Origin: Nitrospinota bacterium
Lineage (GTDB): Bacteria; Nitrospinota; Nitrospinia; Nitrospinales; VA-1
Length of the DNA: 15,111 nucleotides
Reading direction: 5' to 3'
Assembly (NCBI GenBank): GCA_038108555.1
Contig: JAYNIA010000057.1
Span: forward strand, 1 to 15,111
Positions 3,001-15,111 of this stretch are shown piece after piece; positions within the stretch are counted from its first letter, which is position 1; each line of letters opens with the position of its first letter. A program made the position numbers.

Positions 3001-6000
3001 TTCAAAATACTTTTTGGCATAAAGATTGCTCTTTAAAAGGCCGTTATTAATACAAAACCTTTAAGGGGAGTCATAATGCGAGAACGTTCTGGAAAATCGA
3101 TTGCTTATAAACTTGCACTAATTTTGTTTGCTATGATTCTGTTTCCCCGACCGGGTTTCAGCGAACAAGAACCCATGACCACCCTAGGGCAACTTATAAA
3201 AACCATTTCCTACTCGCAACCGGAAAACCCTTTCATTCCAAATGAATCAGAATCCATGTCCCCGGAAAATTTATTTTCTTTTATTCAAACTAAAATGAGC
3301 AATAAGGGAATTCACTTGCTGGAGGGAAAAGATATGGAAACCCCTCTTTCAAATCTGGAGTTTCTTAATATTGTTTATGCATTTTCTGGAGGCCCCCAAA
3401 ACTCAAACCTGATAAATAAAAAACTTTTTTTAAAAAAGAATGGTTTTATTTCTTCTACAGATATTGGTTTGGCAACTGAAATAAAGGGCAGCGTAACCCA
3501 ATACCACCAAAATTCTTCTTTTGGAAAACCGATTACCCTTGCTTCACCCCTTTTCCAGTTTGACGAAATCCGCACCGAGCGCAAAAGCCGCGTTGCTTTT
3601 ACTCTGGATGATGAAAGTCGAGTGATTTTAGGCGGTTCTACAAACATCTCGATGGATAAAAACATATACAATCCAGAAAACAGGTTTAGAAAAATGCTTT
3701 TTCACCTGACGGAAGGAATGGCCCACTTTGTAGTTTCAAAAGCGATGAAAAAAGGTTCTACTTTTGCAGTGGTAACTCCAAATGGAATAGCGGGGGTACG
3801 TGGTACAGAATTCGTTACCATAGTAGAACCTGGGGGAAAGACCCGTTTCGTAGTACTGGAAGGTAAAATAGAAACCGCACCGATACTGTCCAGGGGAAGG
3901 CTGGGAGTCCGTACGTTTATAGGGGCCGGTGAGATGCAAACATTAAGTGAAAAGGGCCGGGCTTCTATTGTCCAGAAAGCACCAAAGAAACTTCTCGACC
4001 GGTTACAAAAAAATTCGATCGTTAAAAAGAAACTTAACCATCCAAAACTTTTGAGAAAATCCAGCTTGCCTAACAAAAAACTGGATTCAAACAAAAGGAC
4101 AAAAAAAGCAAAAACCGATTTCAAACAAAATGGAATGGCTCAGGACGCATTAAAACAGGCTTGGACAGGAAAGCGAAATCCAATGCCCTCTTCCATAGAC
4201 CGGGACACACTAAAACCTTTTAAAAATATCTCCAATCCCTCCCAACTGGATCGTTTCAAATCTAATTACCAGAAACGCATACCATCTCAAGCCTTAAACC
4301 AGATGAAACGACAAGCCCAGATTCATCCCTAAACAAATCTGGCTTTAAAATTTCCAACCCGTCCTTTCTCAAGGCCAGCCCTTGCTATAATAATCCTATA
4401 CTTTTTTTGGAGAGGAAGAATGGCCAGCAGGTATCTGGATATTTTGTGCGGAAAATGTGGAGGCTTTATTTTGCGTTACCGGAAGGAAGGTTCAGGACAG
4501 TTGATTCGACTGTATCTGGATAAAATACTGGAGCCCAAATCGTTAGCTTCCCTAAAGTCCCTTGGAAGCAAATCCAATCTCCCTCCATTGGTTTGTTCCG
4601 ATTGCAACCATCCCATTGGACATCCCATGGAACACCAGGGAACCAGGTTAGCCTACCGAATGATTAAAGGCTCGTTCAAAAAATCCCCAAACTGATTGTT
4701 ACAACTATATTCAGATATGGATTAAGCATCCAACGTCAGGTTGCCTTTAGGAACGGCAATACAAGCCAGGCAAGACCCTTCTTCTGGTGGGGAACCCGGC
4801 TCACCCACGTAGGTCACTTCACCATTTTTAATGGCCGTGAGACAGGTACCACAATTTCCCGCACGGCAACCCGAATCCAAAGGGATGCCATTTTTCTCAG
4901 CGAATTCCAACAGCGAGGTGGCACTTGGATTCCAGGCAAGAATTTTTCCTGACTTGGTAAAGCGAATATCAATTTTGGGAGCCTGCTCTTTATCAGAATC
5001 AGTTTTACATTTTTTAACAGTAGCCGGTCCAAAAGCTTCAAAGTGGATATTGGCTTTTGGGACTCCCCAGGAAGCCAAGTCGGCACGCAAATCCTTTACC
5101 ATTGGAGGTGGTGCGCATATGTAAAAATCATAATTGCTGGAAGGCAAAAACGGTTTGAAGTTTTCAACCGTAACTCTTCCTTCCACATCATAGTCTGTGC
5201 CCTTTACATCTGATTCTTCCGGAGAACTGTAAAAAATCTTTAAATTCACATTGTTATTTTCTTTGGCAACGTTTTCAAGATGCTCCTTCATTACATGCTC
5301 TTTTTTATTTCTGACTCCAAGAAAAAACCAGATTTCCCTTTGGGATTCAATTTCTACCAGTGCATTTAACATACTAAGAAGCGGGGTAATTCCAACACCG
5401 CCGGCAAGTAATACAATGGGACTTTTTTCAGTCATGTTTAGACAAAAATGGCCGCTCGGGGCTTTAACATCGACGATGTCATGTTCGTTTAAATTGTCAT
5501 GAAAATAGTTGGATGCCAGGCCTGCAGGGGCATTCGGCTCATCTCTGGGAGGAAGAACCCTTTTAATTGAAACTCGATAGCGCTCAGGATGATAAGGGCT
5601 GTCAGATAACGAATAGCAACGAACTACTGGTTGTGCTTGCCCTTGAATATGCAATTGAAAAGTCAGGTACTGTCCCGGGATAAAGCCAGGCAGCGGTTTT
5701 CCATCATGGGGAGCTAGATAGAAAGAAGTTATGTCATGCGTTTCTTTAACTTTTGAAGCAATGCGAAACTTTCTAAATCCATTCCAGGAGCGCCTTGCCC
5801 TCTCATCCTCAAGCCGTTTGGCTTCCATGATTTGTTCAACGCGAGCCTTTAACAACTCTGATTCCAGATTTGTTCTATCCTGGTTGATTGCCAACGCACG
5901 GGAATTATTTGCAATAAGAATCAGCACATAGGCCACAAGGCTTAAAAGAAATACCAACGCGATAAAACTGATAGCGATATTTAACAAAATCCTCCTCCTT

Positions 6001-9000
6001 TAGACAACATGACTTTTCTATAAAAAATCATTTTAAACGTTCCGCTATTTGTTTATTCCCAGAATGCATTTTCTTTTTAAATCCAGGATCGAGATGATAC
6101 ACATGACAAGTTTGACAATCCTGAACTATCTGGGATTCGGTATGACATTGAACACATGCTTTCCTTTTTATCGATGCAAAGTTGCTGGACCAGTTCGTTG
6201 CATCAAAACTCTTAAACGAAGCCATATATTCTGCCTTACCATCTAAAATATGGCAATTGGAACAGGAGCTGGTTTTTCCCATTATTTCTATGTGGCTGGA
6301 ATGGGCATATTGGGAATGGGGTCGGTTATTTACATCCTTGTAACGCCATTCGACTTTCAGCTCCTTATTTCCCTCGGCATCCGCTAACTCACTCACAGCA
6401 TGGCATTTAACACAGCCTCCCACACCTTCTTTAGGTGAAATGACCTGATCTCGCATTGCAACTGCACGAGCTTCCTTATCGCCATCTCCCTCCTTTGAAG
6501 ATACTGCCAGGGCAAACTCCACCCAGGCTTTCGCAACCGGATCACGATGCCCCATCGGTTTATAACGAACCTCAAGCATGTCCGCATACCAACCGCCAAA
6601 TTTTGCCTCAACGGGAGGTTCATATTCCAGGTTCAAACCCCACGAACAAGCGGCACGTTTCAGAACCTCTGGATTCAACCCGGTTAAAAGTTTGTGAGCC
6701 ATAGGGGTTTCGGTTTGGGTGTTTATCAAATCCTCAACTGAGAGAATACTATCTTCCGTCATTGCCATAATCAGCTCTTGCAAAGGCTGCTCATAAGTTT
6801 CCGGATCGTCTTCAGGAACATCCAGTAGAAAAGTACTGATCAAAGCTGGCATTTCAGTAGAGACACTGAGAAATTCCTCCTCTGCTTCATGGGCAGGAGA
6901 ATTACAAGCCTGCGTTAATGCTTCATGGTCAATATGATTTTTCATAAACTCAGGAAGGCGCAATAAAACCATCTCTTTCTTCTTTATTTGGGAGCCATGA
7001 CAATCAGCACAAATCTTTTCAAACGCCTGAGGCCTTACCTCCCTATCGGACAAGGTCACCTGATGACAACCAATGCAAGAAGAAGGGGCCTTCTGTGTAA
7101 ATTTGGGATTTTCAAAATGTTTATTTAAATGCGATCCGTGATCAAACTTAATCGAATTTCGGTTGAAATAGGGATACTTTTCAGGAAACTCAGGATGCCC
7201 CTTTGTAAAACTTTCAAATTTGTTTTTATGGCAAGTGTTGCATTGGACACTGGTCGATTGCAATGTGCTCATCCTTTGCCCATTGTGTTCCCGATGACAC
7301 ATAATGCATTCGGTTTTCATAACTTCCCTGCCCTTTGCCAGATCATTGTTATGCGGTATCGAATCAGGGCCCCCAAAAGAATGGCAGTTTACACAACTAA
7401 CTGAAATATCTTCCCGGGTAAAAACTGCTTTAATCCAGCCTACCGGGCCCTTACCATGAGCAGAGTGACAAGAAGAACAGCCCTGCGTTGCAGTAAATTT
7501 TTCATGGGCTTTGGATAATGGACCGGCATCTGAAATACTGACGAACCCACCGCCATCAGGATTTAAAGCCTGTGACGTAGCGAGTAATGCAAGAATGGCT
7601 GCCACAACCAAAAGGGAAATCTGGCCTCGGTTTGCCCGAATCGTTTTCCTCGGAGCACAAGGAGGACGTTGCCAGGAGCATTCCCCATTGGGTCCCGGTC
7701 CCTCTTCACAAGAACCTCCGTAACGTTTTTCGCGGCGACACGACCAGCGCCCTTTTTTAAAAAAAGGCTCACAATCCTGAGTTCCCCCGCAACTGCCATC
7801 TATTTTTGGCCCCTTGAAACAGGGAGTTCTCCATAGAGCCCCTCTTCCGCAACGGTAAGGGAAATTGGGCCTCTCATAAGGGCTTTTATCGTGATCGAAT
7901 TTATTTTCGTCCATTTAATTAAAGAAAACCTGAATAACAATTAAGTGCCATATCACCATTGTCATAACAGCCGCCGCCAAAGGCACATGAACAAGCAACC
8001 AGTTTTTCAACATGGTTTGCAAAGAATAATGGAAATCAATTTTCCGTTTTGTTTCTGCGAGAGCAAAAATTTGTTCCAGATATTCACGCTCCGCCTGATT
8101 TAAAAACCTTTCCAGAATGGAACACTGCTCTTTTACCCAGGTCTGTGCATTTTGCCCCCCAAAGATATTATTAAGGAAAAATCGAGGACGCTGAAAAAAC
8201 CAACCCAATGTTTCCAAATAATGTTGTGCAAGGGTATCACTCCCTGTTTTTTCAGTACACTCCAGAACCAGCCTTTCTGCCTTATTCCTTATTTCTGCTA
8301 TATCCCTTGGAATTCGCTCATAGATACATTCAAGACCAATTCGGGTTAAAAGATGCGGATAAACCTTTTCTATAATCAAACCCACAATTCCTGACAAAGT
8401 GGTTATATAAAATAGAATGGAAAGAATCTGAACATACAATCCTTTGGGCCATAAAACTCCTGCATGCAACCAGAATAAAAAAAGGGCAAGAAACCCAGTC
8501 ACCGTATGGAGCAAAAACCATTTATGGGCAGGCCATAGAGGAAGAAAAGGCAAGCGCTTACGCAGATTGAACAAGCATAAAAAGAAAATAATGAAAAATA
8601 ATCCGCCACCACTAATAAACTCGGGATAGCCGAGGGAGTCTTCTACTTTTAATGTCCAAACCCAAACAAGAACAAAATAGGCAATGGCAAAAGCAATGTA
8701 ACCCCATAATTTTTTCATCACTAAGCCCCCATATCTCCACCCCAGGTCACATCTCTAAAATCCACTCTATTTAATGCATCATGGGGGCATGCAAAAGCGC
8801 AGGCAGGACCTGTGACCTGGTCAACACAAAGATCGCATTTTGTTGCTTTGATAATGGGTTTATGATTTTGCGGATCTAATATAAGTTCCCCTTCATCATC
8901 ACGAATGGAAACCATCCGAATATTTGAATAGGGGCAGGAGTTTGCGCAGGTCTCGCACCCTATGCAAGTGTCGTCATTGATAACAACCATTCCGCCTGAC

Positions 9001-15000: not shown

Positions 15001-15111
15001 GATTCCCATGCGCACTCAAAGCCATGACCCCAACCCCCGTTATCTGGTGAAATAATAACCTTATAATAAACTTAAAACAGGGAATTTATACATAGTGGAA
15101 TTCCCATTGTA

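What a model noticed while it worked through the whole genome (the two positions that open the first line are those of the whole stretch)
4722..15025. Seven-gene redox module coupling periplasmic multihaem cytochromes to cytoplasmic NAD(P)H via a new dihaem-b membrane pr [...]
Seven co-directional genes g02590-g02596 encode: a membrane-anchored FAD/NAD(P)H reductase with C-terminal 2Fe-2S ferredoxin; a decahaem cytochrome with an 8-Cys cytoplasmic N-terminus and one TM helix; a family-less 5-TM protein with two invariant His pairs, each 14 residues apart on one helix, as in the dihaem-b domain of NOX/FRE ferric reductases; a cytoplasmic poly-4Fe-4S protein with cNMP-binding-like domains; a periplasmic tetrahaem c554-like cytochrome; a family-less OprD/Occ-like outer-membrane channel; and a 654-aa pentahaem lipoprotein of the c552 (5ZE8) type. 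Together they wire cytoplasmic NAD(P)H to 19 periplasmic c-haems, with an own outer-membrane channel; g02590+g02592 look li [...]
Evidence so far: CXXCH and TM counts. pfam.tsv/swissprot.tsv: g02590 FAD_binding_6+NAD_binding_1+Fer2, 44% to the reductase part of flavohaemoprotein; g02593 Fer4_11 454-557 + cNMP_binding; g02594, g02596 Cytochrome_C554; g02591, g02592, g02595 without any row. g02592: alignment with 6 orthologues down to 33% identity keeps H71, H85, H244, H258; AF2 model (pLDDT 68) puts each pair on one TM helix; ESM Atlas best cluster (0.96, 237 of 256 features) is auto-named ferric-reductase-like transmembrane component. g02595: AF2 model (pLDDT 63, call 65) is a beta-barrel; Foldseek ranks 18-strand channels first (MOMP 5LDT E 1e-11, Occ/OprD, AlgE; call 96); over 900 homologues, all unnamed. 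g02596 N-part matches 5ZE8 ( [...]
(Added by a program. Inside this text positions count along the whole contig: contig position 1 is position 1 of the stretch shown here. "Call 12" and the like, gene names such as g00115 and contig names such as C1 are that model's own, and its searches are not shown. The text may have been shortened before it was handed on; [...] marks where a part breaks off. The agent that wrote the report below was given it as the finding of a first reader that could run no searches.)

Follow-up and report, generated by a model that had tools for sequence, protein, structure and literature searches.

The report
Known ptd/PCC4 haem-wire gene cluster
These seven genes in a marine nitrite-oxidising bacterium are another copy of a cluster already named twice but never tested; structure models suggest a five-haem enzyme sits on the inner mouth of its own outer-membrane pore and draws electrons from inside the cell.

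Summary
The seven genes are real, co-directional and as described: 10+4+5 CXXCH motifs, and a 5-helix membrane protein with two WX3HX13H motifs whose His are invariant in 70 of 70 orthologues. The cluster is not new. It matches PCC4 subgroup II (He et al. 2017, who already likened the membrane protein to the NOX/FRE dihaem-b domain) and ptdABCDEFG (Elbon et al., bioRxiv); neither tested function. This scan found it before on four other genomes. It is not rare: PtdA occurs in 27 of 52 family genomes and in several phyla. Added here: PtdA folds well (pLDDT 92) as a whole-length 5ZE8/MccSep-type pentahaem that has a conserved RLE motif where those proteins carry Cys. PtdB is an 18-strand Occ-like barrel. 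A PtdA-PtdB complex scores 0.85 against a best control of 0.00; PtdA sits on the periplasmic face, haem-free loops enter the lumen and the haem-2 side faces the pore. Most likely cytoplasmic NAD(P)H drives, through FAD, Fe-S, haem b and bis-His haems, a periplasmic enzyme that reduces a soluble, probably anionic substrate arriving through PtdB. Substrate and direction are untested.

The parts
13061..15025 (-). PtdA: 654-aa pentahaem c cytochrome, lipoprotein-type signal, 5ZE8/MccSep fold with Ig-like C-domain; RLE motif (R268-L269-E270) where relatives have Cys; predicted to dock on PtdB
11592..13028 (-). PtdB: 18-strand Occ/OprD/MOMP-like outer-membrane barrel with about 60-residue N-terminal segment and many conserved Arg
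10548..11546 (-). PtdD: periplasmic tetrahaem c554-like cytochrome, four invariant extra His (H66, H142, H209, H227: 71 of 71), so probably all bis-His
8721..10439 (-). PtdE: cytoplasmic protein with cNMP-binding domains (first cassette FGE..PR intact) and 16 invariant Cys (four 4Fe-4S, HycB/DmsB-like)
7915..8721 (-). PtdF (PCC4 inner-membrane protein): 5 TM, WX3HX13H twice, SGXXG, 120-aa soluble insert; putative dihaem-b trans-membrane conduit
   Evidence: He et al. passages
6028..7914 (-). PtdG: membrane-anchored decahaem with ten conserved extra His (bis-His wire) and an N-terminal twin C-x9-C-x9-C-x5/6-C repeat
4722..5987 (-). PtdC: N-terminally anchored FAD/NAD(P)H reductase with C-terminal 2Fe-2S; no globin domain

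Best explanation
The locus is a ptdABCDEFG/PCC4 subgroup II cluster in the order A-B-D-E-F-G-C, in a nitrite-oxidising Nitrospinaceae genome. It has two modules. Inner-membrane module: PtdC oxidises NAD(P)H (FAD, 2Fe-2S) and hands electrons, through the four 4Fe-4S clusters of PtdE where present, to the two b haems of PtdF, which carry them across the membrane to the bis-His decahaem PtdG and the soluble bis-His tetrahaem PtdD. PtdE's cNMP site probably gates the flow. Outer-membrane module: PtdA binds the periplasmic face of the barrel PtdB, takes electrons at haem 1 and reduces at haem 2 a soluble, probably anionic substrate (oxyanion or metal chelate) that enters through PtdB. Shown here: genes, motifs, conservation, synteny, folds. 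Predicted: the PtdA-PtdB contact and its geometry. Inferred: haem-b binding, PtdF topology, order of carriers, cNMP gating, outward direction, catalysis at haem 2, nature of the substrate.
For: PtdF His 70 of 70, W68 and W241 69 of 70; weak matches of orthologues to DUF4405 (24 of 64), cytochrome b561 (7 of 64) and Ferric_reduct (3 of 64). PtdG has 10 motifs and 10 conserved extra His (59-62 of 62); PtdD 4 and 4. PtdE cassette G171 60 of 60, E172 58 of 60, R181 53 of 60. PtdA is the most conserved subunit outside the family (mean 58% identity versus 30-47% for the others). Its fold is that of 5ZE8, and MccSep of the same family is an enzyme with haem 2 as active site and haem 1 as proposed entry (passages and section 7). 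The Cys of 5ZE8 and the C239/C240 of MccSep align to L269/E270; RLE is found in 253 of 270 motif-bearing sequences (redundant set) and 90 of 96 locus PtdA have no free Cys. Complex PtdB+PtdA: score 0.85, best of 3 controls 0.00, runs agree in at least 89% of contacts, partner pLDDT at least 88; the mark was reached by 116 of 157 solved and 2 of 215 mismatched pairs, counts holding only roughly here. Haem 1 has no interface residue within 8 residues, haem 2 has ten. No solved relative of PtdB by sequence. ptdB accompanies ptdA in 75 of 79 loci. An 18-strand Occ-type barrel (Z 27.0, 314 aligned, rmsd 2.7) with many conserved Arg fits a solute channel. The host encodes NxrA (1705 bits to 7B04).
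Against: No experiment on any member is in the papers found. No RNA evidence here. The models contain no haems and I could not inspect coordinates, so the ligand of haem 2 is not measured: a fifth conserved His (H88, 89 of 95 loci; low model confidence) could complete all five haems, making PtdA a plain carrier. PtdA loops in the lumen could plug rather than line a channel. PtdA interface residues are no more conserved than the rest (0.52 versus 0.59). PtdC or PtdE is missing from some clusters, so the cytoplasmic input varies. NAD(P)H is costly for a nitrite oxidiser (recalled). No conserved neighbour or regulator box points to a substrate.
Confidence: 0.5

Rival explanations
1. Inward extracellular electron transfer: a porin-cytochrome conduit that oxidises Fe(II)/Mn(II) or another donor and feeds the quinone pool through a quinone-active PtdF (model of He et al. 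2017).
For: Proposed from occurrence in Zetaproteobacteria and Hyphomicrobium (section 16 and passages); PtdA-PtdB binding is predicted; related cytochrome b proteins exchange with quinone (same paper).
Against: The cluster is common in nitrite-oxidising Nitrospinaceae and many heterotrophic lineages. A dedicated NAD(P)H reductase, free or fused, is kept in most clusters. In the model only haem-free loops enter the barrel.
Confidence: 0.15
2. Outward Mtr-like wire to extracellular solids such as Fe(III)/Mn(IV) oxides (one option in Elbon et al.).
For: Porin plus three multihaems; ptdAB highly transcribed in an oxygen-deficient zone; the 5ZE8 family resembles archaeal nanowire cytochromes (passages).
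Against: The barrel has 18 strands and ranks with solute channels; MtrB-type barrels are much wider (recalled). PtdA docks on the periplasmic side. No surface cytochrome is in the cluster.
Confidence: 0.12
3. PtdA is an all-bis-His carrier or capacitor (H88 as fifth ligand) and the chain is a signal-gated electron sink or redox buffer, with PtdB serving as anchor.
For: H88 in 89 of 95 loci; cNMP domains in PtdE and FHA domains in two PtdC variants; accessory distribution.
Against: Three type II PtdA lack H88 but keep E270; PtdA is more conserved than the bis-His carriers; the barrel keeps many Arg.
Confidence: 0.13
4. PtdAB and PtdC-G are loosely linked modules; PtdAB oxidises or reduces a substrate using the general periplasmic cytochrome pool.
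For: ptdAB without the other genes within 10 kb, or duplicated, in some loci (AB 10, ABAB 2, baAB 1 of 79, part of them contig-limited); divergent or split arrangement in L016, L017, L019, L020, L024; in L022 A and B are 60-65% identical to the window while the rest are 81-87%.
Against: Most loci keep both modules side by side across phyla (ABCDEFG alone 24 of 79), including the divergent type II cluster.
Confidence: 0.1

Closest known systems
ptdABCDEFG operon (Elbon, Stewart, Glass; bioRxiv 10.1101/2023.11.21.568154)
   Same: Same seven products with the same haem counts; PtdA homologous to T. tepidum c552; the paper's order ABCDEFG is found in 24 of 79 loci holding orthologues of the window's genes.
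   Different: ptdC is last (ABDEFGC); host is Nitrospinaceae (the text lists Nitrospirales; Table S7 not seen); PtdE has 16 Cys, four clusters rather than two.
PCC4 subgroup II (He et al. 2017, PMC5566968)
   Same: Porin, 4-, 5- and 10-haem cytochromes, 5-TM protein with two WX3HX13H and SGXXG, Fer4_11 gene upstream of it.
   Different: They model inward flow to quinone in iron oxidisers; here the host is a nitrite oxidiser and the reductase is downstream.
MccSep/ExtKL and T. tepidum c552 (5ZE8) pentahaem family
   Same: Five haems plus Ig-like domain; whole-length fold match to 5ZE8; in Geobacter the gene lies in a cluster with a porin gene.
   Different: No Cys ligand and no Sec/Cys catalytic residue (L269/E270 and F451 at those places); about 150 residues longer; predicted to bind a barrel.
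NOX/FRE ferric reductase superfamily
   Same: HX13H pairs on helices 3 and 5; cytoplasmic FAD/NAD(P)H module as likely donor.
   Different: Reductase is separate, Hmp/BenC/PaaE-type with 2Fe-2S; the likely acceptor is a decahaem; Pfam Ferric_reduct is not reached by the window protein.
MtrAB/PioAB porin-cytochrome complexes
   Same: Multihaem bound to an outer-membrane barrel.
   Different: 18-strand Occ-like barrel; haems predicted to stay outside the lumen on the periplasmic side.

Membership tests
ptdABCDEFG | PtdA penta-haem with C-terminal beta-sandwich, homologous to T. tepidum c552 | tested here: met
ptdABCDEFG | PtdB porin, PtdC FAD/NAD(P) oxidoreductase, PtdD tetrahaem, PtdE cNMP+4Fe-4S, PtdF ferric-reductase-like, PtdG decahaem | tested here: met
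   against the text
ptdABCDEFG | Gene order ABCDEFG | tested here: inconclusive
   Window is ABDEFGC; orthologues of the same genes stand as ABCDEFG in 24 of 79 loci, so a rearrangement
ptdABCDEFG | Sequence identity to the proteins listed in the paper's tables | not testable with these tools
   Tables S7 and S8 were not seen
PCC4 subgroup II | Porin plus 4-, 5-, 10-haem cytochromes | tested here: met
PCC4 subgroup II | 5-TM protein with two WX3HX13H and SGXXG | tested here: met
   W68-H72-H86, W241-H245-H259, S110-G111-x-x-G114
PCC4 subgroup II | pfam13247 gene directly upstream of the membrane protein gene | tested here: met
   PF13247 at residues 454-557 of 8721-10439
MccSep sulfur reductase | His/Cys haem 2 and Sec/Cys catalytic residue | tested here: not met
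   No Cys outside CXXCH and the lipobox; L/E and F at the aligned places; 90 of 96 without free Cys
NOX/FRE | Four His in two HX13H motifs on TM3 and TM5 | tested here: met
NOX/FRE | Ferric_reduct domain with fused FAD/NAD dehydrogenase | tested here: not met
   Separate genes; no Pfam hit for the window protein, 3 of 64 orthologues weak; fusion seen is with PtdE
NOX/FRE | Two b haems bound | not testable with these tools
   needs spectroscopy
MtrAB-type conduit | Wide barrel with haem chain inside the lumen | tested here: not met
   18 strands; modelled lumen contacts are haem-free loops; prediction only
Flavohaemoglobin | N-terminal globin domain | tested here: not met
   NF009805 matches only residues 60-324, 264 bits under the 432 cut-off

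The most novel reading that the evidence does not exclude
PtdAB is an undescribed kind of envelope machine: a catalytic pentahaem with a non-Cys, Glu/Arg-lined haem 2 clamped on the periplasmic mouth of its own 18-strand anion channel, powered by cytoplasmic NAD(P)H through a cyclic-nucleotide-gated, NOX-like wire. It would carry out an unrecognised reduction of a soluble oxyanion or metal chelate in marine nitrite oxidisers and oxygen-deficient-zone bacteria.
Probability: 0.35. Interest if true: 0.75.

Novelty: new member of a known kind. Interest (0 to 1): 0.4.

Why it matters
The cluster is widespread (586 or more matching stretches in species-level genomes) and reported as highly transcribed in an oxygen-deficient zone, yet both papers that name it treat it mainly as a candidate for extracellular electron transfer and neither tested it. 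The models here turn the open question into specific tests: which cytochrome binds the porin (PtdA), from which side (periplasm), and which residues to probe (E270, R268, H88). The locus itself is one more copy.

Tried and rejected
Expression: no RNA holder was listed for window 9500-15025; no reads were laid. Regulators: eight recalled consensus boxes (FNR, CRP, Fur, NsrR, sigma54, RegA, NtrC, Irr) were none above the maximum of 20 shuffles in 86 upstream regions, and no spaced palindrome was in more than 5 loci. Neighbours: no non-ptd family in more than 7 of 79 loci. Atlas search of the PtdG Cys repeat gave no usable hit. Foldseek and the re-alignment of its top 1000 did not list MccSep among the rows shown; the MccSep link rests on weak sequence matches (E 0.007) and the paper. 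A peroxidase role for PtdA was considered: no PF00199 catalase match in this 92% complete genome, but three CCP/MauG proteins are present, so it is not favoured. Replacement of an assimilatory nitrite reductase was not tested beyond finding one PF01077 protein. Literature: searches found no functional test of ptd/PCC4; the library lacks most subscription papers. Bayer et al. 2021 has no passage on it.
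Full report
Observation. The window is a whole contig (C57, 15,111 bp) of a 2.9-Mb genome. 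Seven minus-strand ORFs fill 4722-15025. Motif counts match the finding: 10, 4 and 5 CXXCH, eight N-terminal Cys in the decahaem, five hydrophobic segments with H72/H86 and H245/H259, 16 Cys in the Fe-S protein. Pfam and NCBIfam agree with the stated domains, and no NCBIfam equivalog cut-off is reached. The closest named homologues are Nitrospina/Nitrospinaceae and the genome encodes NxrA. The contig ends 86 bp upstream of the first gene; in close relatives unrelated genes lie upstream, so no member is missing.

It is a known cluster. Elbon, Stewart and Glass (bioRxiv 10.1101/2023.11.21.568154; parts 1-3 of 5 read; supplements not seen) named ptdABCDEFG: penta-haem with beta-sandwich, porin, FAD/NAD(P) oxidoreductase, tetrahaem, cNMP plus 4Fe-4S protein, ferric-reductase-like membrane protein, decahaem, function unknown. 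The window has all these motifs. Four earlier findings of this scan report the cluster on other genomes.

Distribution. Within 10 kb and contig limits, B was present in 75, D 58, F 55, G 55, C 55 and E 48 of 79. Order ABCDEFG occurs in 24 and the window's ABDEFGC in 3. In the family, PtdA was found in 27 of 52 genomes (20 of 32 high-quality ones) and not found in several near-complete genomes of 2.3-2.9 Mb, so it is accessory to nitrite oxidation. Kin are not independent.

Variants show the modules. (a) Hyphomicrobiaceae-type clusters and one Nitrospirales locus lack ptdE; no full-length match was found in 5 of 5 such genomes searched, completeness not given. This is He's subgroup I. (b) A divergent type II cluster in Nitrospinales genomes (L021, L025-L028) runs A-B-D(3 haems)-G-E*-F, where E* is an 865-aa fusion of Fer2, FAD, NAD, cNMP and 4Fe-4S domains (two of five scanned). 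(c) Four loci from Acidobacteria and Rhodothermales have E but no C nearby and a 7-8-haem D. (d) The twin Cys4 repeat of PtdG is present in 41 of 46 clusters with type I E, 1 of 8 without E and 0 of 8 with the divergent E. PtdF therefore takes a cytoplasmic Fe-S partner of either kind.

Carriers. In orthologue sets passing a coverage filter, PtdF's four His are invariant (70 of 70), PtdG has ten conserved extra His for ten haems, PtdD four for four, and PtdE 16 invariant Cys. The loop after helix 2 is basic, which by the positive-inside rule (recalled) puts H72/H245 on the cytoplasmic and H86/H259 on the periplasmic side. The first cNMP cassette is intact (G171 60, E172 58, R181 53 of 60); the second is degenerate. 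Two PtdC variants carry FHA domains. These point to regulated flow, by inference.

PtdA. Residues 85-634 fold at pLDDT 92.4, pTM 0.91 and match 5ZE8 at Foldseek E 9e-15 and Z 23.3, far above the next row at 9.7. MccSep of this family has four bis-His haems and a His/Cys haem 2 at the active site with a Sec nearby; haem 1 is the proposed entry (10.1101/2025.11.18.688581, passages and section 7). PtdA has four invariant extra His (H119, H240, H324, H445). The Cys positions align to L269/E270 and the Sec to F451 (weak alignments, register uncertain by one). That 5ZE8's Cys is a ligand is recalled, not read. RLE is in 253 of 270 sequences. Against an open haem: H88 is kept in 89 of 95 loci, though three type II proteins lack it.

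PtdB and the complex. The barrel folds at pLDDT 88.8 with 18 strands and ranks with OpdQ, MOMP and OccAB3 (Z 26-27); eleven Arg are kept in at least 85% of 79 orthologues. The one complex job gave 0.85 against a best control of 0.00, runs agreeing in at least 89% of contacts, partner pLDDT at least 88; 116 of 157 solved and 2 of 215 mismatched pairs reached the mark, roughly applicable since my own alignments were used. This supports binding; it does not show it. Contacts are PtdB's N-terminal segment, its short turns and lumen-facing strand residues; on PtdA they are the segments round haem 2 and haem-free loops of the Ig domain, while haem 1 is away from the interface. My reading of which face is periplasmic rests on the usual barrel topology. 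The geometry fits an enzyme at the inner mouth of a channel better than an Mtr-like wire, as an earlier scan note also suggested.

Mechanism and verdict. Most likely path: NAD(P)H, PtdC, PtdE, PtdF, PtdG, PtdD, PtdA haem 1 to haem 2, soluble substrate through PtdB (0.5). Rivals: inward metal oxidation (0.15), electron sink (0.13), outward wire to solids (0.12), loosely linked modules (0.10). Neighbours, promoter boxes and RNA runs gave no handle on the substrate. The locus is a new member of a described but untested system; interest 0.4, carried by the testable PtdA-PtdB model rather than by novelty of the cluster.

Noticed in passing
L021:9774-19344, L025:3-7403, L026:9613-19200, L027, L028: Divergent type II ptd cluster in Nitrospinales genomes with an 865-aa Fer2-FAD-NAD-cNMP-4Fe-4S fusion, a 3-haem PtdD and, in two genomes, two tandem ptdA-like genes; not mentioned in the paper passages read.
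   Followed up: partly
window 7657-7851 (PtdG residues 22-86): Twin C-x9-C-x2-GP-x3-G-x-C-x5/6-C repeat with no Pfam or Atlas match; possible Zn or Fe-S site; tracks with type I PtdE.
   Followed up: partly
L071:15010-16683, L094:13312-14988: PtdC variants with an FHA domain, suggesting phosphorylation control.
   Followed up: partly
L022:8108-11586: ptdAB are 60-65% identical to the window's while ptdC-G are 81-87%, suggesting exchange of the AB pair as a unit.
   Followed up: no
L031:9420-12425: Distant PtdF-like gene beside a 27-haem cytochrome and an ankyrin-repeat protein; may be PCC3-like.
   Followed up: no
G000:C10:44738-49953: Adjacent 10- and 11-haem cytochrome ORFs elsewhere in the own genome.
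   Followed up: no
G000:C41:1350-2348: Small 5-haem protein with weak similarity to PtdA next to a 3-haem protein.
   Followed up: no
window 1689-2840: SAM methyltransferase with a C-terminal CC, resembling arsenite methyltransferases (name recalled, not tested); near the cluster in close relatives only.
   Followed up: no
window 4420-4695: 91-aa protein with two CXXC motifs, convergent with ptdC and conserved next to it in same-genus loci.
   Followed up: no
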